Assembly (NCBI GenBank): GCA_022801925.1 | Contig: JAAWTG010000003.1 | Location: forward strand, 20,611 to 84,610 | DNA: 64,000 nucleotides | Source of the DNA: Clostridia bacterium | GTDB taxonomy: Bacteria; Bacillota; Clostridia; RUG12999 | Direction: 5' to 3' | Part shown: positions 47,827 to 64,000 of the stretch, in pieces | How the letters are laid out: the number at the start of each line of letters is the position of its first letter | Position numbering within the stretch: the first letter of the stretch is position 1 | The notes under the pieces: model-generated | What the model was told of the DNA's origin: nothing | The model's input: the letters and a program-made list of their open reading frames with translations, nothing else | Databases searched by the model: none | Translations under genes and position numbers: made by a program

Positions 47827-47856
47827 TTGCAATAATTGCTGACCTGATGGTATACT
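47827..47856 (+). promoter_or_regulatory. Candidate promoter TTGCAA-18-TATACT (TG-extended) for the sugar ABC transporter operon
   Basis: Read in sequence about 45 nt upstream of the substrate-binding-protein RBS. Confidence 0.4.
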
Positions 47857-47902: not shown

Positions 47903-49489
47903 ATGAGTTGGAAAAAAGCAGTTGGTTTAGGTGTTGCAATTTGTATTGCAGGTACAACATTTTTGACAGGTTGTACATCATCGGAAGGCGGCAACACGTC
48001 GGTAGAAAATATGGAGTTTCCATTAAAGGAATCTGTCACTTTAACGTATTGGATGCCGCTAAATGCATCAGTCAGCAAAAATCATAGTAACATGAATGAC
48101 ACAAAACTTTATCAAGAGTTGGAGAAACGGACAGGTGTCAAAATGGAATTTCAGCATCCGCCACTTGGACAAGAAAAAGAACAATTTAATTTGATGGTTG
48201 CGTCCAATGAACTACCGGATATCTATGAGTATGATATGCTGTTGTATCAGGGTGGTGCACAAAAAGCATTAGATGATGAAATTATTATTCCATTAAATGA
48301 GTTGATGGAAAAATATGCACCGAATCTGACAGCAGTGCTAAAACAAAATCCAGAATGGGATAAAAATGTAAAAACAGACGATGGTACATATTTCACATTT
48401 CCGTTTATTCGAGGAGATGACCGGCTGCGTGTATATGCAGGGGCAATGCTGCGCCAGGATTGGCTGGATGAACTGGGACTTTCCGTACCGGAAACCATTT
48501 CGGATTGGGAAACGGTACTCACAGCATTTAAGGAACAAAAGGGTGCAACAAATCCGTTTTCATTCGAATTAAAAAAATTTAAACTATATAACATAGTAGC
48601 CGGTGCGTATGGTGTGGCAAATGATATGTTTTTGGATGATGACGGCACGGTACAGTTCGGACCGATGATGCCTGCTTATAAAGAATATCTAACGACACTC
48701 AAACGCTGGTATGACAAAGGTTTACTGGATCGCGATTTTGCAACTAGCGATGGAGCGGCTGTGACATCTAAAATCACAACCGGAAAAGCGGGCGCTACAG
48801 TTGGCGGTTCCGGAGGGAATTTAGGAAATTACATGAATCTCATGAAAAACCAAGATAGCAAATTTAATCTTATGCCGGCACCATATCCGACATTGAATCA
48901 AGGAGAACGTCCGAAATTTGGGCAAATTGATCCTGCATCAGGACAAAACGCATTTATTTCGCCCATGTGTAAGCAGCCGGAACTTGCTGTGAAATACTTG
49001 GACTATGGATATAGTGAAGAAGGGCATATGCTGTTTAATTTCGGTATAGAAGGACAGAGTTATACCATGCAGGATGGTAAACCGATTTATACACAAGAAA
49101 TCAGCAATCATCCGGCGGGGTGGGGATTTGCAGAATCTCTTACGCAGTATGCAAGAGCAAGCAGCAACGGTGCGTTTGTGCAGGATTATGATTATATTGA
49201 ACAATATTGTTCTTTGCCGCAGCAGCAGGCAGCAATCAATATTTGGTCGGATACAGACGCAAAAAAACATGTTATGCCGCCCGCAACGCCGACGACGGAA
49301 GAATCGCAGCGTTATGCACAGTTGATGGCTGACATTGATACCTATTGCGAGGAAATGTATTTGAAGTTTATTCTGGGCAGCGAAAGTCTGGATAAATTTG
49401 ATGCGTATGTGCAGCACATCAAGGAGATGGGTATTGAAGAAGCGATTAAAATTCAGCAGGAAGCAGTAGGACGATATAACCAACGTTAA
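47903..49489 (+). CDS. Extracellular solute-binding lipoprotein, family 1 (LplA/YtcQ-like oligosaccharide-binding)
   Basis: Lipobox LTGCTSS, 528 aa, followed by LplB/LplC-type permeases. Confidence 0.85.
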   Translation: MSWKKAVGLGVAICIAGTTFLTGCTSSEGGNTSVENMEFPLKESVTLTYWMPLNASVSKNHSNMNDTKLYQELEKRTGVKMEFQHPPLGQEKEQFNLMVASNELPDIYEYDMLLYQGGAQKALDDEIIIPLNELMEKYAPNLTAVLKQNPEWDKNVKTDDGTYFTFPFIRGDDRLRVYAGAMLRQDWLDELGLSVPETISDWETVLTAFKEQKGATNPFSFELKKFKLYNIVAGAYGVANDMFLDDDGTVQFGPMMPAYKEYLTTLKRWYDKGLLDRDFATSDGAAVTSKITTGKAGATVGGSGGNLGNYMNLMKNQDSKFNLMPAPYPTLNQGERPKFGQIDPASGQNAFISPMCKQPELAVKYLDYGYSEEGHMLFNFGIEGQSYTMQDGKPIYTQEISNHPAGWGFAESLTQYARASSNGAFVQDYDYIEQYCSLPQQQAAINIWSDTDAKKHVMPPATPTTEESQRYAQLMADIDTYCEEMYLKFILGSESLDKFDAYVQHIKEMGIEEAIKIQQEAVGRYNQR

Positions 49490-49529
49490 ACAGTAAGAAA
49501 ACAGATATAAAAAGGCAGGAGTCAAAGGT

Positions 49530-50477
49530 ATGAAACAAGCAATTTCATTTGGGCAAGCAGTGCCGCGGCAGAAAAAGCCGCGGCTGCTGCGGGAATTAGC
49601 AAAAAATAAATATATCTATATCATGCTGGTTCCGTTTCTATTATTTTATATTATCTTCATGTATGGACCGATGTATGGTGCAATGATTGCATTTAAAGAT
49701 TTCACGCCAAAACTGGGTATTTTAGGCAGTCCATGGGTGGGAATAAAGCACTTTGAGGCTTTTTTTGGCAGCATTTATTTTTGGCGTTTGCTGCGAAACA
49801 CCATTTCCATTAGTTTGCAAACGCTGGTATTTGGATTTCCGGCGCCTATTATTCTGGCGTTGCTGCTAAATGAGGTGCGGCAGGCGTGGTTTAAGAAAAC
49901 AGTGCAAACCATATCCTATATGCCGCATTTTATTTCGCTGGTAGTTGTCTGCGGAATCATTAAAATTTTCACGGGCAGCGAAGGTATTATCAACGATTTC
50001 ATGGTGCAATTCGGACAAGAACGGCGTGATTTGCTTTTGGATCCGGCGCTGTTTCAACCCATCTATGTCATATCGGATATTTGGCAGAAAATTGGCTGGG
50101 AATCCATTATTTACTTGGCGGCGCTTTCCGGCGTAGACCAAGAACTATATGAGGCGGCGCGTATTGACGGCGCAGGGAAATGGCGGCAACTGCTGAGCGT
50201 GACGCTGCCGTGCATTTTACCAACCATTGTTGTTATGCTGATTTTGCGTGTTGGTTCTATGATGAACATTGGATTTGAAAAAATCATTTTGTTATATAAC
50301 GGTAATACCTATGAGACCGCGGATGTTATTTCCAGTTATGTGTACCGCAAAGGAATACAGGAATTTTCTTATAGCTTTAGTACGGCGGTGGGATTGTTTA
50401 ATTCAGTCATTAACTTCTTTTTGGTACTGAGCGCAAACACTATCAGCAAAAAAGTAAACGATACAAGTTTGTGGTAA
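49530..50477 (+). CDS. Sugar ABC transporter permease (LplB-like)
   Basis: Six TM helices and an EAA motif region, with an N-terminal extension typical of LplB. Confidence 0.85.
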   Translation: MKQAISFGQAVPRQKKPRLLRELAKNKYIYIMLVPFLLFYIIFMYGPMYGAMIAFKDFTPKLGILGSPWVGIKHFEAFFGSIYFWRLLRNTISISLQTLVFGFPAPIILALLLNEVRQAWFKKTVQTISYMPHFISLVVVCGIIKIFTGSEGIINDFMVQFGQERRDLLLDPALFQPIYVISDIWQKIGWESIIYLAALSGVDQELYEAARIDGAGKWRQLLSVTLPCILPTIVVMLILRVGSMMNIGFEKIILLYNGNTYETADVISSYVYRKGIQEFSYSFSTAVGLFNSVINFFLVLSANTISKKVNDTSLW

Positions 50478-50489
50478 GGGGGAGAAACG

Positions 50490-51368
50490 ATGATAAAACG
50501 AAGTGTTGGAGAACGCATATTTGAAATAGTGAATATTATCATTCTCACCTTGCTGGGGCTAATCGCTTTGTATCCATTATGGCATGTGTTGATGGCGTCC
50601 ATCAGCAGCGGTGATGGCTTGGCGCGGCACACTGGAGCCATGTTTGTGCCAGCAGGGTTTAGTCTGAAAGCATATAGATTAGTGCTTGAAACGCCGATGG
50701 TATTAAAGGGATATGGAAACACCCTATATGTTTTAGTGTTTGGTCTGGCGATGTCTATGACCATGACGATTTTAGGCGCGTTTGCGCTGTCGCGCAAAGG
50801 ATTATATGGAAGAAAAGTGATATTGTTATTTATCATTTTTACAATGTATTTTTCCGGCGGTATGATTCCCTTTTATTTTACTGTGAAAAATGTTGGATTG
50901 GCAGATACGCGCTGGGCGCTGATTGTACCGACATGTGTAAACACATTTAACTTTATCATTATGCGAACCGGATTTGAAGCGATACCGGTGAGTCTGGAAG
51001 AATCGGCAAAAATAGACGGCGCGAATGATTTTGTGGTTTTATGGAAAATTATTTTGCCGCTGGCAAAACCGATTATAGCGGTCATTGTGTTGTATTATGC
51101 AGTGGGAATTTGGAACAGTTGGTTTAATGCAATGCTGTTTTTACGAAACAGGGAACTGTATCCGCTGCAATTGGTACTGCGGGAAATTTTGATTCAAAAT
51201 GACACGGCTGCCATGACAATGGGCGGTGGCGATGCAGACACGGGAATGCTAAATGAAGTATTAAAATATGCAACTATTTGTGTGGCAACTATCCCGATTT
51301 TAGTGATTTATCCGTTTTTGCAGAAATATTTTGCCAAGGGCGTGATGGTTGGCGCGGTGAAAGGATAA
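50490..51368 (+). CDS. Sugar ABC transporter permease (LplC-like)
   Basis: Six TM helices and the binding-protein-dependent transporter inner-membrane signature EESAKIDGAND. Confidence 0.9.
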   Translation: MIKRSVGERIFEIVNIIILTLLGLIALYPLWHVLMASISSGDGLARHTGAMFVPAGFSLKAYRLVLETPMVLKGYGNTLYVLVFGLAMSMTMTILGAFALSRKGLYGRKVILLFIIFTMYFSGGMIPFYFTVKNVGLADTRWALIVPTCVNTFNFIIMRTGFEAIPVSLEESAKIDGANDFVVLWKIILPLAKPIIAVIVLYYAVGIWNSWFNAMLFLRNRELYPLQLVLREILIQNDTAAMTMGGGDADTGMLNEVLKYATICVATIPILVIYPFLQKYFAKGVMVGAVKG

Positions 51369-51400
51369 CAAAAAGCTACATATAAAGGGAGGGTATCTTT

Positions 51401-54046
51401 GTGAGTAATAAAAAAAGAGGGATTGGCATAATGCTGGCGATTGTCATGATACTATCCGTATTAGGTGGAATCATTCCGGCAGCAGCACAGGAAATATCAA
51501 ATAAAGCAGTATTTGATTTGATTTCCTATGGCATATTGCCGGAGGGCACCGGTACAGGAGAAAATGAAACAGTGACCCGCGAAAAACTGGCGGATATGGT
51601 GGCAAAAACGTTGCAAATTGACCACGTTGGCGGCGTTGCCATTCGTTTTGAAGACGTCACGAGAGAATCGGTATACTATGACAGTATCAGTATTGTGGCG
51701 GCATTGGGAATTGTGCAGGGGGATGGAGACGGCAGGTTTCGTCCGAACGATTCTGTTAGCTATCAGGAAGCGGTAAAAGTGCTTGTATGCCTGCTGGGTT
51801 ATGACAGCATGGCGCAGACCAAAGGCGGCTATCCCATGGGATATTTGGCAGTTGGCGGAGAAATTGGTTTATTGGGCGGCAGCGGGAGCACGCAGAATTT
51901 TACCTCACAACATTTGTATCAAATGTTCTATAATGCGCTGGACATTGCTGTCATGGTTCCGGTATTTGGAGAAGGCGGCTATAAAATTGATAAAGACGAA
52001 ACCTTCCGCAATCAATTGGAAAACAGAGTGGATGGAACGTTATACAAAGGAAAAGGAATGGTAGAAGCAAACTATGATTACTACATCAATCAGGCAGTGC
52101 CTTCTATTCAAAAAAGCCAAGTCATGATTGAGGGAAGAATTTATGAAGCCGGCACAACGGGCGCGGCAGATTATATTGGACAGGACGTAGAGTTTTATGC
52201 GAAAGAGGACGATAACGGTGTATTTACATTAGTCAGCTTAAAACCGGCGCGCACAACGTCTGTGATAACGGTAACGGACGAAACCTTTGACGGTATGGAT
52301 GGCAACACATTATATTACTACGAAAATAATCAGCGGGAAAAACTGACAATAGACAATGATTTCATTTATTTGTATAATCATGTACGACAGACCGGAGTAG
52401 GGGCCGGTGACATTGAGGTGCTGTCCGGAAAACTGAAACTGATTGACAACGATGGAAATCGAGCATATGATGTTGTTCTGCGGGAGGAATATGAAACCGT
52501 ATGTGTGGATTCGGTTGTGAATGGCAGAATCTATTTTAAGGACAACAAAACGATAGTAGGACAAACCAGTTTGCTGATTGATAAAGAAGACATTGACAAA
52601 ACTTATTTGTTGGTGGACGCACAGGGAACACCAATAGAAACAGAAGCAATTAAAAAGGACATGGTATTGTCTGTTTTAAGTGATGCATATGGAACGTTTT
52701 TCAGAATTGTTGCAAGCGACAAAACGGTGGAAGGAAAGATAGAAGAAATTCTCAGTGAAGAACCGATAAAAGTAACCATTGACGGCGTGGCGTATACCAT
52801 GGCGCATGGTTCAGCGCTGCGTGCAAAAGTAGGAGACAATGTCATTGCTTACTTGAATGAACGCGGGCAGATTGCGGACACGGAGGAACAATCCGGCGCG
52901 GCACAGTATGGATATGTGTTGGAAGCAGGTCGCGCAGGCGGCATGGGAAACTGGCAAGTGAAGATTTTGGAACCGGGTACGCTCACCATGCAATATGATA
53001 TTGATGACAGCGATCCGGACAATGTGAAAACAACGCCGTATCTAAAAGGGCGGAATAACAGCGTGAAAATTCTGGATATTGCACAAGGTGTAAGCGTGAA
53101 TGGAAGCAAATATACAGGAGAACTTAGTACACTGTTTCGTGATGCGGAAAAACGCACGATTGAATATCAATTAAACAATCAAGGGAAAGTATCGCGCATT
53201 GATTTCCCACAGCGCATCGGAACCGGAGAAAAGAGAAAATATAATGGTTATGAGCGGTTGTTCGGTGGTTTTGGCAGCGGTGCGTTTGCAACAGATGACA
53301 ACACCAAGGTGATATGCGTACCGGAAACAGCAGTAGAGCGGGATGAGGATTATCGGGCAGAAGTAGAAATTAATAACGGTTCGCAATATACCATCAGCGG
53401 TTATGAACAGCAAAGCGCATATATTGCAGAGTTGGTTGTGATTACCATGCCAATGAAATATGACAATGCAGTGGAAGTCAATGAAAATAAGGATAAAATG
53501 GTTGTTGCAACCAGTGTAAAATCCATCATAGGGGAAGACGGTGAACCGGCGAAGGAAATTAGCTTTTTAGAGGGAAAAGAGGAAAAAACCTATCGTGTGG
53601 CAGATACGGCGCTTCCTGCGGCGGCAGGTATGGGCGTTGGCGATGTCTTTTTCTACACACTCAATCCGGTCGGAGAAGTCGGTACGATTAAGTTGCTGCA
53701 AAAAGTGCTCCCGCGGCCGGCGTTTCGCAATGAAGGAAGTGTTGACACCAGCGCAGGAAAGAACATGTTCGGAACGATTCATAATGTGACCTATAAAACA
53801 GTGAATGATATCAATAACGTTTTTGTTGACAGCGTGGAACTGTGGTTTAATGAAACAGGAAGCGAAACGTATACGCTGGACGTCAATGTCCGCAATGCAC
53901 CACCGATTTATTTTATTGACGCAAATGCAAAAACAGTTCGGGCGGGAACCCGCGAAGATTTGGCAACAGCAATGAACAGCAGATATGGCGCTTATGTACG
54001 TGCAAGCGATTCCAAAATTCGCGGCATTGTATTGGTATCTTATTGA
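51401..54046 (+). CDS. Secreted surface protein with an N-terminal SLH region and a large beta-rich C-terminal region
   Basis: Signal peptide and SLH-like segments (KAVFDLISYGILPE, SISIVAALGIVQGDGDGRFRPNDSVSYQEAVKVL). GTG start with an AGGGAGGG RBS. Confidence 0.7.
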   Translation: MSNKKRGIGIMLAIVMILSVLGGIIPAAAQEISNKAVFDLISYGILPEGTGTGENETVTREKLADMVAKTLQIDHVGGVAIRFEDVTRESVYYDSISIVAALGIVQGDGDGRFRPNDSVSYQEAVKVLVCLLGYDSMAQTKGGYPMGYLAVGGEIGLLGGSGSTQNFTSQHLYQMFYNALDIAVMVPVFGEGGYKIDKDETFRNQLENRVDGTLYKGKGMVEANYDYYINQAVPSIQKSQVMIEGRIYEAGTTGAADYIGQDVEFYAKEDDNGVFTLVSLKPARTTSVITVTDETFDGMDGNTLYYYENNQREKLTIDNDFIYLYNHVRQTGVGAGDIEVLSGKLKLIDNDGNRAYDVVLREEYETVCVDSVVNGRIYFKDNKTIVGQTSLLIDKEDIDKTYLLVDAQGTPIETEAIKKDMVLSVLSDAYGTFFRIVASDKTVEGKIEEILSEEPIKVTIDGVAYTMAHGSALRAKVGDNVIAYLNERGQIADTEEQSGAAQYGYVLEAGRAGGMGNWQVKILEPGTLTMQYDIDDSDPDNVKTTPYLKGRNNSVKILDIAQGVSVNGSKYTGELSTLFRDAEKRTIEYQLNNQGKVSRIDFPQRIGTGEKRKYNGYERLFGGFGSGAFATDDNTKVICVPETAVERDEDYRAEVEINNGSQYTISGYEQQSAYIAELVVITMPMKYDNAVEVNENKDKMVVATSVKSIIGEDGEPAKEISFLEGKEEKTYRVADTALPAAAGMGVGDVFFYTLNPVGEVGTIKLLQKVLPRPAFRNEGSVDTSAGKNMFGTIHNVTYKTVNDINNVFVDSVELWFNETGSETYTLDVNVRNAPPIYFIDANAKTVRAGTREDLATAMNSRYGAYVRASDSKIRGIVLVSY

Positions 54047-54066
54047 TAAAAGGGAGGATACGGCAA

Positions 54067-57000: not shown

Positions 57001-59046
57001 AAGGCGAATGTGCGTGTGACGTTGGTGGATGCACAGAACAGAAATGCCATTCTGTTTACAGCCAGAAATGATATTGTTGGTTTGCAGGCAGGAAATAAAT
57101 GGAATGCTGAAGGAAGAGCGCCGTGGGGCGATACAGATGTTTATCCCACGCTTTTTGATGGGGAAACTGGACCGCGCGTTACATTCCGGGCCGAATACAA
57201 TCATATGACGGGCAAATTGAATGCCTATGTGAAGTTGGCAGATTACACAGGACCGGAGAATTACGGTGAATATTATCAGATAGCAACCGATGTTGCGCCA
57301 AACAATGCTGCTGTAACAGGCGTTCTTTCCGGTATGGAAATTGATTCCTGCGGTACGAACAACGCCGTGATAGAAAGTGTCCGCTGTTATACCACTTCCC
57401 ATGCGGTGAAAGAAGCGACTTCCGGAATCGTGGAAGCATTGGAGTATATGAACGGACAAAACGAGAAATTTGTAGTGGGAAATCTGGAATTTCCGCAAGT
57501 CATTGACCAATATGGTGCTTCCATTTCATGGAAAAGCAAACCGCAAGGATATTTTGACGAAAGAGGGAATTTGCTTTCCCGTCCGGCAGCATATGAAACA
57601 GTGGATGTTGCTATCACACCGGTTGTAACATTTGCAAATGCGGCGTGGGCGTCTGCGGCGCCGGCATTTCCTGCAAAAACGGTGACGGTAGTTGGTGTGA
57701 ACGATGAAAATGCTGCGCTGAACAAAAAAGTGAGTGTTTCGGGAGCAAAAGCGGCAGAAGGCAGCCGTGCAGATTACATCACGGACGGCAGTCTTGAACG
57801 TGGATTTTCGACTGACGGAACAGAAAAACGCTTTGATGTAATCGTTGATATGGGTGATGCAGCATGGAATAAACTGAAAATTACCGAGGGTGAAGCCTAT
57901 AACGTGGCATCTTATGAAATCAGTGTGTCGGAGGACAGAAGAAATTGGAGGGCAGTTCAAACCGGTACAACGCTGCAACTGAAAGAGGCAACCTTAGCGG
58001 GAGACGAAGGCAGCCGGTATGTGCGGCTTTCTGTTCAGGGGAAAACGTTTGAAAGTCTGCCGGTACATATCAAGGAGATTGAAGCATTTTTTGAACCGTC
58101 TGATGATTATCGTGCAAAAGCAGACTTAGAACGGGTGACACTTCCGACAGGAATGGTGAAACAAAACTTTGTTGTTCCGGCAAAAGGTGCTGTCTATGGA
58201 AGCGAATTTGCTTGGACATCAAGCCGCAGCGATATTTTATCGATTGCAGCGGCGCCGTCTGGTGAGGGATATTTGGTAACAGTAACGCAGCCGGAACGCA
58301 ACACACCTGTTACGTTGACTTTAAAAACAGGAAATATTACGAAGCAGTATCAAGTAACAGTGCAAGGTAAAACGTATGGCGGCGGCGGCATAGGTGGCGG
58401 TGCAGGAAGCGGCTCCGGCGGCGGAAACAAAGTATCCGGCGGTTCGAGCAGTACAATTCCGTATCTTCCGACAGAAGCAAACCGAAGTGAAAACATTCAG
58501 CTGACAGGATATTTTCCCGATGTAACGGGATGGGCGGAAAGCTATATCAACAGACTTTATGAACATAAGGTTGTCAGCGGAGATGCGCAGGGCTATTTTC
58601 ATCCGGATGCAGGGGTATCGCGCAGCGAATATATCAAAATGCTGACCTTGACATTGGGTATTGCGCCGGATACACAAACGGAACTTCCGTTTACAGATGT
58701 TTCGGAAGAACACTGGGCGCGTCCGTATATTGCAGCGGCGTATAAGCTGGGCATTATCAGCGGTATTTCTGAAACGGAATTCGGCGTTGACCGGGCGATT
58801 TCACGCCAAGATTTGGCGGTGATGACAAATCGCGCACTGGAAAAAATGGGACGGCAAATGCAGCAGGTGACAGAAAAAACAGAATTTACCGATGCGGCTG
58901 CAATTGCGCCATATGCGGCACAAAGTGTGGAAACTATGCAGCAGTATGGTATCATAAACGGTATGCCGGACGGCGGCTTCCATCCGCTGGAATGTGCAAC
59001 GCGCGGCGAAAGTGCAAAAATTCTGTGCGGCGTTCTGCCAAACTAG
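54067..59046 (+). CDS. Giant (about 1660 aa) surface protein. It has repeated N-terminal domains, Ig-like/Big domains, a candidate discoidin (F5/8 type C)-like domain, a Gly-rich linker, and C-terminal triple SLH domains.
   Basis: Signal peptide. Two internal repeats of about 310 aa (MTPAQTAAYYSYTIGNFVEGYEGYAYEKE / MTPEEAFYYRYTMGKMIDGYNGYAYEND). C-terminal SLH repeats (YFPDVTGWAESYINRLYEHKVVSG, FTDVSEEHWARPYIAAAYKLGIISG). Confidence 0.7.
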   Translation: MKYRKKLSWTLLTGLIVSLFAGIVPAAAEMTPAQTAAYYSYTIGNFVEGYEGYAYEKEADFASLDDLKAFPAIAAGSGNTWDGVSVVNGKPVMSKANDVIDFLFPTYDDNEIEKPTAQKSYALFRYSLSATDANFQSSPGQTARHQNGKMEFNQKGASGAVWTQVTDDIQKFAANDILTIKTFQDATRQNTAKLLEYTTWVNNETKNTGFVKQLENVNPQASASNQNIKNYNAKVLSGNAANITIYGWASYEQYEYLLRETIRSVETELLGSNRSLQNVTSNLKLPQDLALNLDKGHVGSVKWTSSNEEIVNSQTGVVTRSKSGDQKVTLTAVYTVSGAEGEKTKTIAYPITVPTSAAMTPEEAFYYRYTMGKMIDGYNGYAYENDLNFASLEELKKADNIDVRSDAGMSVGDGKAKFGKGAGEVSFIYPDKDIMGNDKPVNGKMYSETAFSVSPKSTFLNMSSGAGVKTEGSKIKLSYRTEANGEAFQEATADIQNFAANDILRYKFYLDATRKEDPNGLLSYTTWIENSTKNTGWILQKENYNPRWGSTNTSLVEITFKTAAYNNGVGTAHSVSAYERFEYLLRDLVKQAEKDMLQGNAALSRVETDLRLQSGEVTLDKGCKGTVTWESTDAGVINPQTGKVERSTTEDKYVTLTATYSVADEKGETKEKVIAYEIFVPMNAPLRKLADRFTWDVISNTQTADSVRGDLNLVKTYAHESVPDCTAAVSWTVLSGGEAVNTETGEITRQETGDVKVELEATLKDGDAEVKIVFPFTVPRYISPQEEADAVAQNLTWESISTEAQNSVTKKLTLPGTMATIDNNTAQITWNVSAGSAAATADGTVTPQSTDTLVVLEAVVSCGGAQTKKEFQFVVLAVNQDLEHFHVNFKAEGDKTLADSSYAQTMKTGTTGAVEEGYSAQFVDGKGLQLQSAGANADTDKFMLHWNMLPSAAEPAAMENLKTTSTIYEVTMYVIGKDKANVRVTLVDAQNRNAILFTARNDIVGLQAGNKWNAEGRAPWGDTDVYPTLFDGETGPRVTFRAEYNHMTGKLNAYVKLADYTGPENYGEYYQIATDVAPNNAAVTGVLSGMEIDSCGTNNAVIESVRCYTTSHAVKEATSGIVEALEYMNGQNEKFVVGNLEFPQVIDQYGASISWKSKPQGYFDERGNLLSRPAAYETVDVAITPVVTFANAAWASAAPAFPAKTVTVVGVNDENAALNKKVSVSGAKAAEGSRADYITDGSLERGFSTDGTEKRFDVIVDMGDAAWNKLKITEGEAYNVASYEISVSEDRRNWRAVQTGTTLQLKEATLAGDEGSRYVRLSVQGKTFESLPVHIKEIEAFFEPSDDYRAKADLERVTLPTGMVKQNFVVPAKGAVYGSEFAWTSSRSDILSIAAAPSGEGYLVTVTQPERNTPVTLTLKTGNITKQYQVTVQGKTYGGGGIGGGAGSGSGGGNKVSGGSSSTIPYLPTEANRSENIQLTGYFPDVTGWAESYINRLYEHKVVSGDAQGYFHPDAGVSRSEYIKMLTLTLGIAPDTQTELPFTDVSEEHWARPYIAAAYKLGIISGISETEFGVDRAISRQDLAVMTNRALEKMGRQMQQVTEKTEFTDAAAIAPYAAQSVETMQQYGIINGMPDGGFHPLECATRGESAKILCGVLPN

Positions 59047-59059
59047 GGGAGGCGAAACC

Positions 59060-62000
59060 ATGAAACAATATAAAAAGACGTTTTGTTTGCTGCTGGGCGG
59101 CTTGCTGCTAAGTAATGCAATAATGTCTTCGGCGATGGCGGCACCGGAAACGGTGTCCGCCGACGTACAAACTGTGACGGTAGCAGCAGAGGCGGCTCCG
59201 GAGGAAATCTACGATTATGACCGCAACGCTGCTTATGCCCGTTTAGCACAGTGGCAGGATCCAAACTACATGAGCGATGAGGAGTTTTTTGGAAAATATG
59301 AAAACGGGCAGTGGGTCAATGCGGGTAAACTGGACTATGAACGAATTCCGGATTTATCGGCGGTAAAAGCGGCAGTAGAGCAGCAAAACTATGAGTTGGC
59401 AAAAGAAGAATGGCTGCAATATTTCAGAGAAAAACGGGAGCGGATTCCTGCAACAAAGCCGGAGTTTACACGTGCAGATATGCTGTCCAGCCAATTGTTG
59501 GAGTATGACCTCAACTGGAACACAAACTCTAACATCACGCCGCTGGATATTATCACAGTTCCGGCAGAAAAGGGAGAAATACTTCTCAATATGGAGCCGA
59601 CTTTAAAAACGCTGCGCGGGAAAAATGAACTGTTGACAGTGTATCTCATTGGATTAAAAAAAGATGGCTCGGTTGCGGAATTTGACAGCCGCAACAAAGA
59701 GGGCGGACATGCGCCTACATTGGAGGTCACGATTGACGGCGTGACAACACCGATTGTAGCACGAGACGACACCTATGTATCGCCTTGTGAAAACCATAAT
59801 AAAATTTATGGCTTGGAGGACACGTTTCTGGTGGAGGAGAGCGTCAGTTCCATTGGAAAAGGAAAGGATGTAAAAGGAAAAAGTATCAATGTTCCGGCAG
59901 ATAAAAATACCAAACGGGGACTGATTCAATTTGACCTTTCCGGTTTTCCAGAGGATGCGGAAATCTCTAATGCTGTGATTAAATTATATGGAAAAAATAT
60001 TGGTCAGGAGGGTAATACCGGCGACATGCAGGTGGCGGCGTTTTCCATTGCCAATTATGGATGGCCGGAAGCACAGCAGACCTTTTACGGACCAAACGGC
60101 ACAGGACTGGACCATTTGATTTTTTCGTGGTATGGGGACGGTGCGATAGGGTATTTGCCGACCAGAACAATTTATCCGATTCGCGACCCATATATATCCA
60201 GCAAGGCAATCTGCGGACACCGTTTTCCGGAGGAAATTGCACGTTTCGCACGTTGGTGGACCAGTCCTATCAACGGATATCTCAGTGCAGCAGAAGATAA
60301 TGAGCATTATGCGTTCATTGCCATTAAACAGCTTGCGCATTTGTTAGATGAACGCGGAGATGAACCGGGATTTGATTTGCAGCAGTGGTTGGATGTATCC
60401 TGCCGTTCCGAATCCATGAGCAAAGGACTTTTTAATCTGTGCACCAGTGAACATATGAGTACGGAAATTTGGACGGCAATCACAAAATATATGTGGCAGA
60501 TGGGAAAACGGTTGACAGAGGCGACGCCGACCGGCACCAACGGTACAACGTTTATCATTAGCGGATTCAATCATTTGAATGTTTATTTTTATGAATTCCG
60601 TCAGCACTATGACTGGGCAAAAACCATTCGCCACTACTCTGACGTCAATGTGACAGCGTCTGTGAAAGCGGACGGTGCAGGGGTGGAAGGTGGACTTGGT
60701 TATGTGGCAAATGTGTATAAAGGGCAGGCAGGCTGGGTGCAAATCAATGAAAGTATGGGTGTCATGGAAGAGGCAAGTATGCCTATTTCACCCGAACTGA
60801 AGAGCACCATTGCACGCGGTTTGCGTTATGTGATGCACATGACAGGGCCCGGCTATGTTGACAATCAAATGGGAGATGGCGGAAATCACCGAACGGATTA
60901 TAAGTCCCAGTTTAAACTGGGGGGCGAACAGTTGGCTGACGACACCTCTCTGATTGATGATTATTTATTATATGCAGGAACAGACGGCGCGCAGGGAAAA
61001 CAGGATCCGGTGACCTCCGTTATGTATCCGCTTGACATGCGTATGGTGATGCGTACAGGTTGGGCGAAAAACGATTTATATTTGATGAATTCTGTCAATG
61101 AAGATAAAACACATTGTCATAATGATGACGGAAATATTATCATGTTTGCTTATGGGAACTATTTGCTGGTTGACCCTCTTTATTATACCTACACGTCCGG
61201 TGACCCTTATGGAACGAAACTGAAAAGCAGTCTGATGCACAATACTGTTAATATGAACGGGAAAAATCAAAACGCACAGACGGGTGGTTCTGTGAATCTA
61301 TGGGGATCCAACAGTGTGTTTGATATTTCCAATATGGGCACACAGAATGTTCCGGATGCAAAGCAGTTTAACCGTTCTGTTGTTTTTGTCAAACCTGGTT
61401 ACTATATTGTATCAGATTATTTGATACCAAAGAACAACAACGTAAATACCTACAGTCAGGATTGGCATTTTCTGCCTACGGCAAATATTATGGCAGATGA
61501 AGAAACAGGGCAGCTGCGTACCAATTTTGAAGCGGAAGCAAATTTGATGATTGCACAGGATTCTATGGAAAACATAGATGTTACTATCAACACGAACGGC
61601 TTATACTCTGAAGGAAACAGCCATCTTGTGCAAAACGTGAAATATGCTGAATATAAACAAGAGACAAAAGGCCCTGCGGTCTTTAATACAGTGTTATATC
61701 CGGTTCGCGCCGGTGGAAGTGCGGAAGTGGAAACGATGCCGCTGGTTGTGGAAGACGTGAAAGAGAACGGGGCTTCAGCAATGGAAATCCGTACCCATGA
61801 TGCGGATCAAAATATGCAGACGCAAGCCCAATATTATATGGTTCATGATTTTGAGCAGCAAAAAATGCGCAATTATGGAGACTATCGCACAGACGCACTG
61901 TTTAATTATGTGGAGCAAAATGGAGAAGGGAAAAATACCAAAATTCTCATGCAGGGCGGGACACAAATCCGGCAGCGTAAATCCGGCAGTTATTCTGTTT

Positions 62001-62923
62001 TGCTGAAAGCGAAGAAAAAAGTAGAGGATTTAGGCATTGAATTTAACACTACCACAATGAATATATCGACTTCGCAGGAAGATTTTAACATAGAGGATAT
62101 CACTGTTTTTGCAGACAGGGAAATTGATACAGTAAAACTGAATGGTGAATCGGTAGCGTTCAAACAAGCGGGTGCATATCTGTATTTTGGTGATAAACCG
62201 ATTGAAGATGGCAATACACCGGTAGTTACACCGACCCCCACGGCTACGCCGGCGCCGACACAATCCGTTCCGAACCACGGTAACGGCGGCGGTGGTGGCG
62301 GCAGCACTTCCGGTGTGACGAACATACCGACGCCGACAGCGGAAGTGCCTACACCAACACCAAGCGGGACAACGCAGCCGCAGCAGGGAAGCAGGTATTT
62401 CAGCGATGTTACCGTGCAGGCTCCATGGGCGGCAGAAGCGGTAGATTACCTTTGTGAAAAAGGGATTGTCAGCGGCGTTGCACAGGGGATATTTGCGCCG
62501 GAACAATCTGTAAAACGTGAGGAAATTGTGAAAATGATTGTGTTGTCGAAAAATCTTGCGCCTAATGCAGCAGTAAACCTTCCGTTCACAGATGTGCCGG
62601 AGAATCACTGGGCAAGACCTTACATTGCCGCGGCGTATGAAGCGGGCATTGTACAAGGAATTTCAGAGACGGAATTTGGACTAGAGCAAAATGTGTCGCG
62701 TCAGGATTTGGCGGTGCTGTGCGAGCGTGCGCTGCACGAAGCGTCAGAGATGGCAGAGCCAGAGACGGCGTTTACGGACGAAAATCAAATTGCACCATAT
62801 GCGCTGGAAAGCGTGAAACGGCTGTGCAAAACAGGCGTTATTGGCAGCGGCGGAAGTTTCAGGCCGTTGGATTACGCCACTCGCGCAGAATGTGCAAAAA
62901 TTCTATATGGATTGATACAGTAA
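59060..62923 (+). CDS. SLH-anchored polysaccharide lyase of the heparinase II/III / alginate-lyase superfamily
   Basis: Signal peptide. An alginate-lyase-like N-terminal alpha/alpha toroid region, then a heparinase II/III-like block (HCHNDDGNIIMFAYGNYLLVDPLYYTYTS). A Pro/Thr linker, poly-Gly, and three SLH repeats at the C-terminus. Confidence 0.7.
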   Translation: MKQYKKTFCLLLGGLLLSNAIMSSAMAAPETVSADVQTVTVAAEAAPEEIYDYDRNAAYARLAQWQDPNYMSDEEFFGKYENGQWVNAGKLDYERIPDLSAVKAAVEQQNYELAKEEWLQYFREKRERIPATKPEFTRADMLSSQLLEYDLNWNTNSNITPLDIITVPAEKGEILLNMEPTLKTLRGKNELLTVYLIGLKKDGSVAEFDSRNKEGGHAPTLEVTIDGVTTPIVARDDTYVSPCENHNKIYGLEDTFLVEESVSSIGKGKDVKGKSINVPADKNTKRGLIQFDLSGFPEDAEISNAVIKLYGKNIGQEGNTGDMQVAAFSIANYGWPEAQQTFYGPNGTGLDHLIFSWYGDGAIGYLPTRTIYPIRDPYISSKAICGHRFPEEIARFARWWTSPINGYLSAAEDNEHYAFIAIKQLAHLLDERGDEPGFDLQQWLDVSCRSESMSKGLFNLCTSEHMSTEIWTAITKYMWQMGKRLTEATPTGTNGTTFIISGFNHLNVYFYEFRQHYDWAKTIRHYSDVNVTASVKADGAGVEGGLGYVANVYKGQAGWVQINESMGVMEEASMPISPELKSTIARGLRYVMHMTGPGYVDNQMGDGGNHRTDYKSQFKLGGEQLADDTSLIDDYLLYAGTDGAQGKQDPVTSVMYPLDMRMVMRTGWAKNDLYLMNSVNEDKTHCHNDDGNIIMFAYGNYLLVDPLYYTYTSGDPYGTKLKSSLMHNTVNMNGKNQNAQTGGSVNLWGSNSVFDISNMGTQNVPDAKQFNRSVVFVKPGYYIVSDYLIPKNNNVNTYSQDWHFLPTANIMADEETGQLRTNFEAEANLMIAQDSMENIDVTINTNGLYSEGNSHLVQNVKYAEYKQETKGPAVFNTVLYPVRAGGSAEVETMPLVVEDVKENGASAMEIRTHDADQNMQTQAQYYMVHDFEQQKMRNYGDYRTDALFNYVEQNGEGKNTKILMQGGTQIRQRKSGSYSVLLKAKKKVEDLGIEFNTTTMNISTSQEDFNIEDITVFADREIDTVKLNGESVAFKQAGAYLYFGDKPIEDGNTPVVTPTPTATPAPTQSVPNHGNGGGGGGSTSGVTNIPTPTAEVPTPTPSGTTQPQQGSRYFSDVTVQAPWAAEAVDYLCEKGIVSGVAQGIFAPEQSVKREEIVKMIVLSKNLAPNAAVNLPFTDVPENHWARPYIAAAYEAGIVQGISETEFGLEQNVSRQDLAVLCERALHEASEMAEPETAFTDENQIAPYALESVKRLCKTGVIGSGGSFRPLDYATRAECAKILYGLIQ

Positions 62924-62933
62924 CAAAACGGAA

Positions 62934-62957
62934 CCCCTTCACCCTTGGATGAAGGGG
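62934..62957 (+). terminator. Candidate terminator hairpin (CCCCTTCA/TGAAGGGG) after the lyase gene
   Basis: 8-bp stem with an 8-nt loop. The downstream T-run is weak. Confidence 0.4.
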
Positions 62958-63026
62958 ATTCCGCTATATTTCGGCGGCTTTGGTTTATAACAGAAACAGA
63001 TGGAAGTGAAAGGATGAGTGAAAATA

Positions 63027-64000
63027 ATGAAAAATTCGCAGAGAGTTACGCTGGAACCGGTGGCAATGCCGGAACGTTTCCGGTTCGATGAAACATTTGT
63101 TTCCAAAGCAGTAAAAAACGCTACAGATATTATTTTGGCAAATTTAAGTGAATATGTACATATGTATCCCACTGCGGCAAGTGAAAAGTTACAGTATGGG
63201 AAACAAAAAAATGGGGAAGATTGGGTAGAAGGTTTTTGGACAGGAATGTTGTGGCTGAGCTATGAATTAACCGGAAACGAATTGTTTCGGGCAGTGGCAG
63301 AGGCGCAGTTTGATGATTTTCAGGAGCGGCTGAACCGTTTCGGCGGGCTGTCTCATCATGATATTGGTTTTTTATATGTTCCTTCCGCAGTGGCACAATA
63401 TAAAATTACAGGAGCACATAAAGCGCGGGAATTGGGCTTGCGCGCAGCGGAGCAATTGGCGAAACGCTTCAGTGAAACGGCAGGCATTATTCAGGTGCGG
63501 GATACAGACCGCCAAGGAGTATTTATTGTGGATTGCAGCATGAATTTGCCGCTGCTGTTTTGGGCGGCGCAAACAACAGGAGACCACAGTTATTATAGTA
63601 AAGCGCTGCGGCACATTACCCAAGTGTGTAACTATATTATCCGTGATGACGCTTCCACATTTCAGCGTTTCCAAATTGATGAAGTTACGGGGCAGCCGGG
63701 CAAGGGGGAACAAGGACAGGGATATGATGACAAATCCTGTTGGGCGCGCGGGCAATCGTGGGTGATTTATGGACTTGCGCTGGCATATCGCTATACGCGC
63801 GAACCGGAATTTTTAGAAATGGGAAAACGTGTAGCGAATTATTGTCTGAATCGTTTGCCAAGCGACCATGTCTGTTGTTGGGATTTGATTTTTACAGGGG
63901 ACGGGGATGCACGCGATTCTTCGGCAGCGCCTATCATTGCCTGCGGGCTGCTGGAGTTGGCGGAGCATCTGCCGGAGGAGGATATGCATAAACAGCTTTA
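63027..64000 (+). CDS. Unsaturated glucuronyl hydrolase-like protein (glycoside hydrolase family 88), 3'-truncated by the window end
   Basis: Open frame from the ATG at 63027 to the window end, translated by eye. EGFWTGMLWLSYELTGNE and SHHDIGFLY blocks are typical of GH88. Missing from the ORF track because there is no stop in the window. Confidence 0.7.
   Translation, partial: MKNSQRVTLEPVAMPERFRFDETFVSKAVKNATDIILANLSEYVHMYPTAASEKLQYGKQKNGEDWVEGFWTGMLWLSYELTGNELFRAVAEAQFDDFQERLNRFGGLSHHDIGFLYVPSAVAQYKITGAHKARELGLRAAEQLAKRFSETAGIIQVRDTDRQGVFIVDCSMNLPLLFWAAQTTGDHSYYSKALRHITQVCNYIIRDDASTFQRFQIDEVTGQPGKGEQGQGYDDKSCWARGQSWVIYGLALAYRYTREPEFLEMGKRVANYCLNRLPSDHVCCWDLIFTGDGDARDSSAAPIIACGLLELAEHLPEEDMHKQL

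What the first reader, a model, noticed from the sequence alone, without database searches (positions are those of the whole stretch)
47903..64000. Polysaccharide utilisation locus for an acidic (uronic-acid-containing) glycan: LplABC transporter, three SLH-anchored proteins, a PL lyase and GH88
Gene content and order suggest extracellular cleavage of a glycosaminoglycan-, ulvan- or alginate-like polymer by a surface-anchored heparinase II/III-type lyase. The unsaturated oligosaccharides would be captured by the lipoprotein binding protein, imported by the ABC transporter, and hydrolysed by a GH88 unsaturated glucuronyl hydrolase. No regulator is encoded between the tRNA genes and the transporter. 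The upstream region instead carries palindromes and direct repeats (47696-47746), so the regulator may lie beyond the window end.
Basis: partly seen in the sequence, partly recalled or inferred. Interest (0 to 1): 0.55.

Follow-up and report, generated by a model that had tools for sequence, protein, structure and literature searches.

The report
Gut Clostridia uronic-acid glycan utilisation locus
This operon from an uncultured gut Clostridia bacterium most likely cuts a glucuronic-acid-containing polysaccharide at the cell surface with a wall-anchored heparinase-III-like lyase, imports the fragments and finishes them with a GH88 hydrolase. That design is already known, but the lyase clade and its two wall-anchored partner proteins have never been characterised.

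Summary
One + strand gene string (47903-64000) encodes:
- a lipoprotein binding protein;
- two ABC permeases;
- three SLH wall-anchored proteins, the third of which is a lyase;
- the first 324 codons of a GH88 gene.

Tools refined the picture.
- **Lyase:** it is a distant (about 21% identity) relative of PL12 heparinase III. It keeps the catalytic Asn/Tyr/His, and a CBM96-like module is inserted in its N-terminal domain.
- **GH88:** it is a true unsaturated glucuronyl hydrolase, with both catalytic Asp present.
- **Binding protein:** its closest solved relatives are Smon0123, which binds unsaturated GAG disaccharides, and AlgQ1/2.
- **Beyond the window:** in 90-95% identical relatives the operon continues with a glucuronate dehydratase (ex-GH154) and a membrane dCache-AraC regulator. 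In a 75% ortholog the same regulator sits upstream of the transporter.
- **Promoter:** three conserved direct repeats next to the promoter look like its operator.
- **SLH-A (881 aa):** it is a new family with an SLH triad plus a chain of OB-like barrels. It precedes this lyase family in at least 16 gut-Clostridia loci and has co-diverged with it.

The substrate is unresolved. An unsulfated GlcA-HexNAc (GAG-like) polymer is favoured, and alginate or ulvan is unlikely. This is a new variant of a known kind, of moderate interest.

The parts
47719..47808 (+). Three direct repeats, CAAAWAWTGWRKAT (47719-47733, 47739-47753, 47794-47808), lying just upstream of the -35 element. They are the candidate operator for the AraC-type regulator.
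   Evidence: The repeats were found (D3, D4). All three copies are conserved in the 75% ortholog L061, while the surrounding spacer has diverged. Regulator binding is inferred, not shown.
47827..47856 (+). Promoter-like site, TTGCAA-18-TGgTATACT, with an extended -10 element, 47 nt before the SBP start codon.
   Evidence: Consensus scan. The -35 and -10 blocks are conserved in L061. This is a consensus match only.
47903..49489 (+). Lipoprotein solute-binding protein (528 aa) of a CUT1-type sugar ABC importer.
   Evidence: SBP_bac_8 at 1e-08. LTGC lipobox. PDB hits are 5xs8 at 4e-53, 5gub (Smon0123 with unsaturated chondroitin disaccharide) at 2e-52 and AlgQ2 at 1e-46.
49530..50477 (+). ABC permease 1 (315 aa, MalF/UgpA-like).
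   Evidence: BPD_transp_1 at 4e-16. NCBIfam weak hits to UgpA and MalF.
50490..51368 (+). ABC permease 2 (292 aa, MalG/UgpE-like).
   Evidence: BPD_transp_1 at 8e-12. NCBIfam weak hits to GlcU and MalG.
51401..54046 (+). SLH-A (881 aa): a signal peptide, an N-terminal SLH triad (about residues 33-180), then about 700 aa of small OB-like beta-barrels. It is a conserved partner of the lyase family and its function is unknown.
54067..59046 (+). SLH-B (1659 aa). Order of modules: signal peptide; two copies of a very rare ~230-aa module X (residues 34-262 and 362-590); a Pfam-less ~240-aa module Y (about 880-1120); one F5/8 type C domain (about 1228-1325); a Gly-rich linker; three C-terminal SLH repeats. 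Five aBig_2 stretches are interspersed among these. It is probably a non-catalytic glycan-binding protein.
   Evidence: Pfam. Internal repeat at 39% identity. X and Y have no Pfam hit even at E <= 10. X has only 5 hits among 1.84 billion cluster representatives. Only 4 homologs were found. The model is poor (pLDDT 48), with only weak similarity to ConA-like lectin folds.
59060..62923 (+). Wall-anchored polysaccharide lyase (1287 aa) of heparinase III (PL12)-like fold. A CBM96-like module is inserted in the N-terminal alpha/alpha domain (about residues 141-398). The catalytic candidates are N494, Y548 and H685. The C-terminal SLH triad follows a Pro/Thr/Gly linker.
   Evidence: Pfam: CBM96, Hepar_II_III_N/C and SLH. 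NCBIfam HepC scores 54 bits against a cut-off of 700. The family profile against PDB gives 4mmh 2e-54, 5jmd 3e-37, 4fnv 9e-27, and only 1e-06 for PL15. Invariant residues are listed. BLASTP gives 21% identity to HepIII.
62934..62957 (+). A 10-bp G+C-rich hairpin in the 103-nt gap between the lyase and GH88. It may be an attenuator or a processing site.
   Evidence: There is no T-run on the + strand and terminator-like sites are not above chance in this region, so the role is uncertain.
63027..64000 (+). GH88 unsaturated glucuronyl hydrolase: the first 324 of about 397 codons, cut by the window end. It has no signal peptide, so it is cytoplasmic.
   Evidence: Glyco_hydro_88 at 66.5 bits. PDB UGL hits 3anj/2zzr at about 4e-74, 1vd5 at 1e-67 and 3wiw at 6e-35. 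Both catalytic Asp are conserved, in the HHDIGFLY and FIVDCSMN motifs.

Best explanation
This is a Gram-positive polysaccharide utilisation locus (gpPUL) for a polymer that contains 4-O-substituted beta-D-glucuronic acid. The polymer is most likely an unsulfated GAG-type GlcA-HexNAc chain such as heparosan or low-sulfated heparan sulfate, chondroitin or hyaluronan.

Proposed mechanism:
1. The secreted lyase is held on the cell wall by its SLH triad. It cleaves the polymer by beta-elimination using the heparinase-III-type Asn/Tyr/His site, leaving a 4,5-unsaturated GlcA at each new non-reducing end. Its inserted CBM96-like module helps it hold the acidic chain.
2. Two further wall-anchored proteins accompany the lyase. 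SLH-A is a chain of OB-like barrels. SLH-B is an array of Ig-like, F5/8C and lectin-like modules. They probably capture or present the polymer.
3. The lipoprotein binding protein takes up the unsaturated oligosaccharides. The two permeases import them, driven by an ATPase encoded elsewhere.
4. In the cytoplasm GH88 removes the unsaturated GlcA.
5. In close relatives, and therefore probably just beyond this window, a glucuronate dehydratase converts saturated end-GlcA into the same GH88 substrate. A membrane dCache-AraC sensor switches the operon on through three direct repeats next to the promoter.

Shown by sequence: the gene content, the domain and fold assignments, the catalytic residues, the synteny and the co-divergence. 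Inferred: every activity, the substrate, the roles of SLH-A and SLH-B, and regulator binding.
For: - Operon layout with short intergenic gaps.
- Lyase: the family profile matches PL12 HepIII structures across both domains (2e-54, 3e-37, 9e-27), far better than PL15 or PL17. N494, Y548 and H685 are invariant and align with the HepIII Asn/Tyr/His. It carries a signal peptide and SLH repeats.
- SBP: it has a lipobox and is homologous over nearly its full length to Smon0123 (5gub, 2e-52). Smon0123 is the binding protein of the characterised importer of unsaturated GAG disaccharides. The SBP also matches the alginate-binding AlgQ1/2.
- GH88: it matches UGLs at about 4e-74 and 1e-67, and the catalytic Asp pair is kept.
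- Relatives at 90-95% identity continue with PF10022 (E = 4e-107; BcGDH 9o4u at 5e-86) and a dCache-AraC gene. PMC12269599 shows that this family dehydrates end-GlcA so that GH88 can act.
- The regulator is 70% identical but relocated upstream of the SBP in a 75% ortholog, and the promoter-proximal repeats are conserved there.
- No other GH and no sulfatase lies in the operon or its flanks.
- Close relatives come from gut MAGs, including a mouse catalogue.
Against: - No enzyme in the locus has been assayed.
- The lyase is only about 21% identical to HepIII. It scores far below the HepC equivalog cut-off and was not detected by single-sequence phmmer against PDB.
- The specificity clues conflict. 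The lyase resembles enzymes that cut the 1,4-linked heparan backbone. The SBP and GH88 resemble proteins that prefer 1,3-linked chondroitin or hyaluronan disaccharides.
- Paralogous loci of the same lyase family carry GH78, GH95, GH28, GH130 or GH20. The family as a whole is therefore not GAG-specific.
- The dehydratase and the regulator were seen only in relatives, not in this window.
- The X and Y modules of SLH-B could hide an unknown catalytic activity.
Confidence: 0.75

Rival explanations
1. The locus is a dedicated heparan sulfate / heparosan system. On this view the lyase is a true heparinase III that cleaves GlcNAc-alpha1,4-GlcA, and the locus feeds on host heparan sulfate shed in the gut.
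For: - The closest solved relatives of the lyase are all PL12 heparinase III enzymes, and the catalytic triad is conserved.
- The best NCBIfam hit is HepC.
- Close relatives are gut MAGs.
- In Bacteroides thetaiotaomicron a surface PL12 (BT4662) plus a GH88 (BT4658) do exactly this job (PMC9067506).
Against: - Identity to HepIII is only 21%, and the HepC score is 54 bits against a 700-bit cut-off.
- No sulfatase and no other heparin lyase lies in or near the operon.
- The GH88 is much closer to the streptococcal and Bacillus GL1 UGLs (about 1e-74) than to 3wiw (6e-35). From memory, the former prefer 1,3 linkages or gellan products and 3wiw is heparin-specific.
- The nearest characterised SBP, Smon0123, binds heparin disaccharides poorly.
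Confidence: 0.25
2. The target is a non-GAG heteropolysaccharide that contains GlcA, such as a bacterial exopolysaccharide or capsule (gellan-, xanthan- or glucuronan-like) or a plant arabinogalactan/gum. The unknown modules of SLH-B would supply extra binding or debranching functions.
For: - Paralogous loci of the same lyase/SLH-A family carry GH95, GH130 x2, GH28, GH78 and GH20, and one middle protein carries a GDSL esterase.
- Family members occur in soil Paenibacillus species.
- The GH88 is also close to the Bacillus sp. GL1 UGL (1e-67). From memory, that enzyme works on gellan and xanthan lyase products.
- The founding CBM96 binds alginate, not a GAG.
- BT3677, the founding ex-GH154 protein, acts on beta-glucuronides. 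From memory, it belongs to an arabinogalactan locus.
Against: - This orthologous group has no accessory GH at all: only GH88 plus the dehydratase. That fits a simple disaccharide repeat better than a branched heteroglycan.
- The paralogs are only 24-31% identical to this lyase, so their substrates say little about this one.
- The closest SBP and dehydratase relatives come from GAG systems.
Confidence: 0.3
3. The SLH proteins, the lyase included, serve the cell's own envelope by remodelling or turning over its own capsule, EPS or secondary cell-wall polymer. They would not serve nutrient acquisition, and their position next to the transporter would be incidental.
For: - All three proteins are SLH-anchored.
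- SLH-A has the N-terminal-SLH plus all-beta architecture typical of S-layer proteins.
- A glycosyltransferase, an EAL-domain gene and a c-di-GMP riboswitch lie upstream on the other strand.
Against: - In many species the lyase family is linked to an SBP, permeases, a sensor-regulator and a cytoplasmic GH88.
- The order SLH-A, middle protein, lyase recurs at least three times per genome lineage, each time with a different catabolic GH.
- The SBP is of the uronate-oligosaccharide type.
Confidence: 0.07
4. The lyase-like protein is not a lyase. It would be a heparinase-fold uronate C5-epimerase or a binding protein that has lost catalysis.
For: From memory, the heparinase II/III fold is shared with glucuronyl C5-epimerases, which use similar Tyr/His chemistry. 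Identity to any assayed lyase is low.
Against: - Asn, Tyr and His are invariant across 11 family members down to 26% identity.
- Linkage to GH88 is tight, and GH88 needs the unsaturated product of a lyase.
- The protein is extracellular.
Confidence: 0.05

Closest known systems
Bacteroides thetaiotaomicron heparin/heparan sulfate PUL (BT4652-BT4675), with the surface PL12 BT4662 and the GH88 BT4658 (PMC9067506)
   Same: - A surface-located PL12-type endolyase makes oligosaccharides that are imported and finished by a GH88.
- A dedicated sensor-regulator controls the locus.
- The solved PL12 structures from this PUL (4fnv, 5jmd) match the lyase family profile at 9e-27 and 3e-37.
   Different: - The host is Gram-positive. 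SLH wall anchoring and an SBP-dependent ABC importer replace lipoprotein tethering and SusC/D.
- There is one lyase instead of four, and no sulfatases.
- The lyase is only about 21% identical to HepIII (measured against the Pedobacter enzyme) and has a CBM96-like insertion.
- The regulator is a dCache-AraC protein, not a hybrid two-component system (HTCS).
- Two extra wall-anchored proteins are present.
Streptobacillus moniliformis GAG cluster: the Smon0120-0123 ABC importer plus the UGL Smon0127 (PMC5430744)
   Same: - The binding protein is homologous (5gub, 2e-52, nearly full length).
- The logic is the same: extracellular lyase, ABC import of unsaturated uronate oligosaccharides, then a cytoplasmic UGL.
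   Different: - That system uses a PL8-type lyase (from memory) on 1,3-linked GAGs, and its cluster encodes its own ATPase.
- Here the lyase is PL12-like, the ATPase is missing from the locus, and the binding protein is a lipoprotein.
- Ligand preference has not been tested here.
Bacteroides caccae PUL25: PL35 + GH88 + glucuronate dehydratase BcGDH (ex-GH154) + GH109, which targets unsulfated chondroitin (PMC12269599)
   Same: - In the 90-95% relatives the lyase, GH88 and dehydratase form the same trio. The dehydratase matches BcGDH (9o4u) at 5e-86.
- No sulfatase is needed in either system.
   Different: - The lyase family differs (PL12-like rather than PL35).
- No GH109 is present: the neighbouring Gfo/Idh/MocA gene in the relative showed no GH109 match among the 59 PDB hits listed and lies on the other strand.
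- The transport and anchoring are of the Gram-positive type.
- The dehydratase gene lies outside this window.
Bacillus sp. GL1 gellan/xanthan depolymerisation: an extracellular lyase followed by the intracellular UGL 1vd5 (from memory)
   Same: - It is a Firmicute system in which an extracellular lyase product is finished by a GH88 UGL.
- The window GH88 matches 1vd5 at 1e-67.
   Different: - Those pathways need further glycosidases (glucosidase, rhamnosidase, mannosidase), which are absent here.
- No relationship between the two lyases was shown.
Gram-positive PULs (gpPULs) of gut Firmicutes as defined in PMC9067506
   Same: The locus has a CAZyme, a glycan transporter and, in relatives, a transcriptional regulator, as that definition requires.
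   Different: - The review states that no GAG gpPUL of a gut Firmicute has been characterised.
- This one adds a conserved three-protein SLH module that those descriptions do not mention.

Membership tests
PL12 (heparinase III / heparin-sulfate lyase) | A two-domain architecture: an N-terminal alpha/alpha toroid plus a C-terminal beta-sandwich, homologous to solved PL12 enzymes. | tested here: met
   The profile of 11 family members aligns with 4mmh chain residues 117-609 and the N-terminal helices 17-56 (E = 2e-54). It also matches 5jmd (3e-37) and 4fnv (9e-27). PL15 and PL17 score only 1e-06 and 7e-03. Pfam finds Hepar_II_III_N and Hepar_II_III_C above their cut-offs. No structure model of the lyase was made.
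PL12 (heparinase III / heparin-sulfate lyase) | The catalytic Asn/Tyr/His of heparinase III (N240, Y294 and H424 in Pedobacter numbering, recalled from memory). | tested here: met
   N494, Y548 and H685 are invariant in alignment A1. They align with the Asn, Tyr and His of 4mmh in both the profile and the BLASTP alignments.
PL12 (heparinase III / heparin-sulfate lyase) | Sequence similarity at family level (CAZy/dbCAN PL12 model) or at equivalog level. | tested here: inconclusive
   dbCAN is not available. The NCBIfam HepC equivalog scores 54.3 bits against a cut-off of 700. Single-sequence phmmer against PDB finds no lyase. Pairwise identity is 21% over 390 aa, E = 1e-11. The protein could be a divergent PL12 subfamily or a separate family.
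PL12 (heparinase III / heparin-sulfate lyase) | Beta-eliminative cleavage of heparan sulfate or heparosan. | not testable with these tools
   This needs an enzyme assay.
GH88 (unsaturated glucuronyl hydrolase) | Homology to characterised UGLs rather than to GH105, which shares the same Pfam model. | tested here: met
   PF07470 scores 66.5 bits against a cut-off of 26.6. All 8 PDB matches at E <= 0.01 are GH88 proteins (seven UGL sequences and 3wiw, deposited as 'Glycosyl hydrolase family 88'): 3anj at 3.6e-74, 1vd5 at 1.4e-67 and 3wiw at 6e-35.
GH88 (unsaturated glucuronyl hydrolase) | The catalytic Asp pair (D115 and D175 of S. agalactiae UGL, which are the positions mutated in 3wux and 3ani). 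| tested here: met
   Both are conserved in the HHDIGFLY and FIVDCSMN motifs. Both lie within the part of the gene inside the window.
GH88 (unsaturated glucuronyl hydrolase) | The streptococcal sulfate-recognition motif (R236, S365, S368, K370; recalled from memory). | tested here: not met
   In the 95% relative these positions are G, V, I and C, with a 7-residue insertion (TRARKEG, within the basic stretch KKTRARKEG). This is a specificity feature, not a family-defining one.
Gram-positive PUL (gpPUL: CAZyme + transporter + regulator) | At least one glycan-degrading enzyme and a glycan transporter in one locus. | tested here: met
   Lyase, GH88, SBP and two permeases.
Gram-positive PUL (gpPUL: CAZyme + transporter + regulator) | A transcriptional regulator in the locus. 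| tested here: inconclusive
   None lies within the window. A dCache_1 + HTH_18 (AraC) protein is present in the 95%, 90% and 75% relatives, downstream of the operon or directly upstream of it. The window's own downstream DNA could not be fetched.
SBP-dependent CUT1 sugar ABC importer ('LplABC-type') | A binding protein plus two BPD_transp_1 permeases. | tested here: met
   the lipobox is visible.
SBP-dependent CUT1 sugar ABC importer ('LplABC-type') | A cognate ATPase, and orthology to B. subtilis LplABC. | not tested
   No ATPase gene lies in the locus. The only ABC_tran gene seen in the window (6167-6889) belongs to an amino-acid-type transporter. No Lpl reference sequences were compared.
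SLH-anchored cell-surface proteins | A triad of SLH repeats that forms the wall-binding module. | tested here: met
Glucuronate dehydratase (PF10022, ex-GH154) | Homology to BcGDH and adjacency to GH88. | tested here: met
   This was met only in relatives. In L002 PF10022 scores 4e-107, and 9o4u and 9nwf score 5e-86 and 4e-85; the gene follows GH88 directly. Its presence downstream of this window is inferred.

The most novel reading that the evidence does not exclude
SLH-A, the variable middle protein (SLH-B here) and the lyase would form a conserved, wall-anchored three-protein apparatus for capturing and cleaving glycans. It would be peculiar to an uncultured lineage of gut Clostridia and would be the functional counterpart of the Bacteroidetes surface 'utilisome'. 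SLH-A, a chain of OB-like barrels, would be a new kind of stalk or glycan-binding scaffold. The lyase clade would be a new PL (sub)family whose members have diversified onto several acidic glycans beyond heparan sulfate.
Probability: 0.3. Interest if true: 0.6.

Novelty: new variant of a known kind. Interest (0 to 1): 0.42.

Why it matters
How Gram-positive gut bacteria use acidic glycans is poorly understood. A 2022 review states that no GAG gpPUL of a gut Firmicute has been characterised (PMC9067506). This locus offers three things:

- a compact, testable model of lyase, ABC importer, GH88 and dehydratase in uncultured gut Clostridia;
- a heparinase-III-like clade at about 21% identity to assayed enzymes, with several paralogs per genome tied to different glycosidases, which is a likely source of new lyase specificities;
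- two unannotated wall-anchored partner families. One of them (SLH-A) is strictly linked to the lyase and has co-diverged with it, which hints at a surface complex.

The locus also extends the GH88/dehydratase pairing discovered in 2025 to Firmicutes.

Tried and rejected
- **Fetching the window's own downstream DNA.** Exact-product look-ups for the lyase and SLH-B failed. Relatives were used instead.
- **A GH109 role for the neighbouring Gfo/Idh/MocA gene of the relative.** Its PDB hits are generic oxidoreductases, with no GH109 match among the 59 listed, and it lies on the opposite strand. Rejected.
- **A hidden catalytic domain in SLH-B.**
  - Pfam finds nothing in modules X1, X2 and Y even at E <= 10.
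  - An exhaustive HMMER search with an X profile gives 5 hits in 1.84 billion representatives.
  - The AF2 model is too poor (pLDDT 48), and its Foldseek hits are only generic ConA-like sandwiches.
  - The question is unresolved.
- **SLH-A fold search.** Nothing is similar beyond the SLH triad and generic OB barrels. The DDB1 and other large-protein Foldseek hits have TM < 0.1 and were ignored.
- **Riboswitch or other RNA in the 637-nt leader.** Nothing scores above noise.
- **Internal promoters or terminators.** The counts are at chance level.
- **The palindrome at 47697-47720 as an operator.** It is not conserved in the 75% ortholog.
- **Literature on a gellan lyase family link.** Nothing useful was found. 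'DUF2264' gave no papers.
- **A canonical prfB frameshift site near 29.1 kb.** No CTTTGAC is present there.

Full report
**Observation**

The region 47903-64000 holds seven + strand genes separated by only 12-103 nt.
- Pfam assigns SBP_bac_8 to the first gene and BPD_transp_1 to the next two.
- It finds SLH in the next three, and CBM96 + Hepar_II_III_N + Hepar_II_III_C + SLH in the sixth.
- The open-ended seventh ORF, which starts at 63027, matches Glyco_hydro_88.

The binding protein has an LTGC lipobox. All three SLH proteins have signal peptides. tRNA-Met and tRNA-Leu lie at 47094-47265 on the - strand. The 637-nt spacer up to the first gene has no credible ORF and no Rfam match. The description is therefore correct.

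The window's proteins are identical to those of an NCBI MAG labelled 'Clostridia bacterium' (locus tags HFI90_). In that record the lyase and SLH-B are annotated as hypothetical proteins. The rest of the window carries housekeeping genes (PcrA, DnaB, TilS, FtsH, SecA, RF2, HisZ), so the setting is chromosomal.

**The lyase**

A single-sequence search of PDB finds only the SLH module. The protein collection yielded just ten relatives that carry the lyase domains. A profile of these sequences (A1) matches the PL12 heparinase III structures strongly and over both domains:
- 4mmh at 2e-54, with profile positions 429-925 against chain residues 117-609;
- 5jmd at 3e-37;
- 4fnv at 9e-27.

PL15 and PL17 alginate lyases reach only 1e-06 and 7e-03.

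A second short match joins the N-terminal helices of the profile (129-168) to HepIII residues 17-56. Pfam likewise finds Hepar_II_III_N positions 9-50 before the CBM96 hit and positions 106-325 after it. The CBM96-like (DNRLRE) module is therefore an insertion of about 250 residues inside the N-terminal alpha/alpha domain.

N494, Y548 and H685 are invariant in the family. They align with the Asn, Tyr and His of HepIII in both the profile and the pairwise alignments. The constant 24-residue offset from chain to literature numbering fits N240/Y294/H424, which I recall from the HepIII structure paper. Pairwise identity to HepIII is only 21%, and the NCBIfam HepC equivalog scores 54 bits against a 700-bit cut-off.

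I conclude that the protein works like a PL12 lyase. Formal membership of PL12, and the substrate, remain open.

**GH88, binding protein and what lies beyond the window**

All PDB matches of the GH88 fragment are GH88 proteins:
- S. agalactiae UGL at about 4e-74;
- Bacillus sp. GL1 UGL at 1e-67;
- 3wiw at 6e-35, which from memory is the heparin-specific Pedobacter enzyme.

It is therefore GH88 and not GH105, which shares the same Pfam model. Both catalytic Asp are present. The streptococcal sulfate-binding residues are replaced, and a 7-residue insertion in a basic stretch (KKTRARKEG) is present.

The binding protein's best solved relatives are Smon0123 (5gub, 2e-52) and AlgQ1/AlgQ2 (1e-46 to 3e-40). 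5gub is Smon0123 in complex with an unsaturated chondroitin disaccharide. Smon0123 is the binding protein of the first characterised ABC importer of GAG fragments, and it prefers 1,3-linked disaccharides over heparin disaccharides (PMC5430744).

In MAGs with 95% and 90% identical lyases the operon continues as follows:
- GH88 (397 aa);
- a PF10022 protein (4e-107), which matches the B. caccae glucuronate dehydratase structures at 5e-86;
- a 765-aa dCache_1 + AraC-HTH protein.

PF10022 is the former GH154. A 2025 paper showed that it dehydrates saturated non-reducing-end beta-GlcA so that GH88 can remove it (PMC12269599). Neither GH88 nor the dehydratase has a signal peptide.

**Regulation**

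In a 75% ortholog (L061) the same regulator, 70% identical, sits directly upstream of the binding protein on the same strand. The link between regulator and operon therefore survives rearrangement.

Aligning the two promoter regions shows diverged spacer DNA interrupted by conserved blocks:
- three copies of CAAAWAWTGWRKAT (47719-47733, 47739-47753, 47794-47808);
- a TTGCAA -35 element;
- an extended -10 element;
- the ribosome-binding site.

This is the layout expected for an AraC-type activator, but binding is inferred.

**The two other SLH proteins**

A scan of GTDB genomes found 57 loci that encode relatives of the lyase.
- Most come from uncultured gut Clostridia: mouse catalogues, Hadza humans, deer, sheep and rabbit.
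- Three or more lyase-family loci were found in each of several MAGs.
- Others come from Paenibacillus and a few other Firmicutes.
- Actinobacteria show partial matches only.

In at least 16 Clostridia loci a homolog of SLH-A lies upstream of the lyase. A 900-2900-aa protein usually sits between them. Every such middle protein that was scanned carries aBig_2, F5/8C and SLH, in any order, with variable other modules that include CBM96 and a GDSL esterase.

Pairwise identities of SLH-A and of the lyase across 15 loci correlate at r = 0.93, or 0.83 without the one close pair. None of 2000 Mantel permutations reached this value. The two genes have therefore been inherited and duplicated as a unit. 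That fits functional coupling but does not prove contact.

SLH-B contains two copies of a ~230-aa module (39% identical to each other). This module has only five matches among 1.84 billion cluster representatives. SLH-B also contains a ~240-aa module with no Pfam hit. The model of SLH-B is unreliable (pLDDT 48), and its only consistent resemblance is to ConA-like lectin sandwiches.

I read both proteins as non-catalytic capture or scaffold components. Confidence in that reading is low.

**Substrate**

What can be said with fair confidence is this. The polymer contains beta-GlcA substituted at O4, because beta-elimination requires that substitution, and GH88 and the dehydratase act on GlcA. The imported fragments are acidic oligosaccharides, judging by the SBP clade.

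This orthologous group has no other glycosidase and no sulfatase. That favours a simple, unsulfated disaccharide repeat such as heparosan or low-sulfated heparan sulfate, chondroitin or hyaluronan.

The specificity clues disagree. The lyase looks like heparinase III, while the SBP and GH88 look like proteins that prefer 1,3-linked disaccharides.

Paralogous loci carry GH95, GH130, GH28, GH78 or GH20, so the wider family clearly serves other, more complex acidic glycans.

Alginate catabolism does not use GH88. No rhamnosidase or sulfatase is present. The close relatives come from gut MAGs, one of them from a mouse catalogue.

My estimates are: GAG-type polymer about 0.5, another GlcA-containing glycan about 0.35, something else about 0.15.

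**Comparison and verdict**

The logic matches three known systems:
- the B. thetaiotaomicron heparin PUL, with a surface PL12 plus GH88;
- the S. moniliformis GAG importer;
- B. caccae PUL25, with lyase + GH88 + dehydratase.

Here that logic is transposed to a Gram-positive envelope, with SLH anchoring and an SBP-dependent importer whose ATPase is encoded elsewhere.

The locus is a new variant of a known kind. Its pathway is ordinary, but three of its parts are uncharacterised: a divergent heparinase-III-like clade with an inserted CBM96-like module, the SLH-A family, and the rare modules of SLH-B.

All functional statements rest on homology, synteny and co-divergence. No activity was or could be measured here.

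Noticed in passing
window 46810-46896 (- strand): A c-di-GMP-I riboswitch (RF01051, 71.1 bits, E = 1.2e-13) lies directly upstream of the - strand genes for a VTC domain (46068-46775), DUF4956 and CotH. Further along the same strand are a 723-aa protein, a HEAT-repeat protein, a GT2 glycosyltransferase and an EAL-domain protein. This looks like a c-di-GMP-controlled envelope or polymer operon, separate from the finding.
   Followed up: partly
window 47421-47458: A perfect 18-nt inverted repeat with a 2-nt loop (CTACTCTCCAAAAGGCAT / ATGCCTTTTGGAGAGTAG) sits in the tRNA-SBP spacer. It has no T-run and no Rfam match. A second long imperfect inverted repeat lies at 47593-47673. The purpose of both is unknown.
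   Followed up: partly
L007, L010, L035 (one MAG, CAMNSU01); L004, L008, L029 (iMGMC-479): The genome lineage closest to the window carries at least three paralogous loci of this lyase family. Where enough flanking DNA was recovered, they show the order SLH-A, middle protein, lyase. The lyases are only 24-31% identical to the window's. This is an expansion of the module within a single uncultured gut lineage.
   Followed up: partly
L009:18388-20724, L012:13977-15990, L017:17489-18910, L018:14200-16554, L027:15815-17626: Paralogous loci pair the lyase family with different glycosidases: GH95, two GH130, GH28 (plus DUF4832), GH78 and GH20. One middle protein (L012:2556-6881) carries a GDSL esterase and CBM96. 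This suggests different complex acidic glycans as targets.
   Followed up: partly
L002:13968-15161 (the 95% relative of the window GH88; the equivalent region lies just beyond window position 64000): The loop that carries the sulfate-recognition residues in streptococcal UGL is replaced here. It holds a 7-residue insertion (TRARKEG, within the basic stretch KKTRARKEG). This may be a specificity determinant.
   Followed up: no
L061:3-2042 compared with L002:16605-18902: The dCache-AraC regulator lies downstream of the dehydratase in the 90-95% relatives but directly upstream of the binding protein in the 75% ortholog. The locus has been rearranged while the same parts were kept.
   Followed up: yes
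L016, L020, L021, L026, L028, L036 (Paenibacillus abyssi, P. koleovorans x2, P. plantarum, P. sabuli, Paenibacillus sp. 598K): Cultured soil and marine Paenibacillus species encode relatives of the lyase at 26-29% identity. Most have the same type of SBP, permeases and dCache-AraC regulator nearby (L021 has regulator-like hits only), and some have GH88. None has SLH-A. These strains could serve as tractable hosts for testing the family's activity.
   Followed up: no
window 29158-30174: The release factor 2 ORF (PCRF + RF-1) is listed from a GTG start and is only 338 aa long. No canonical CTTTGAC frameshift site lies nearby. The true start, or a frameshift, was not resolved.
   Followed up: partly
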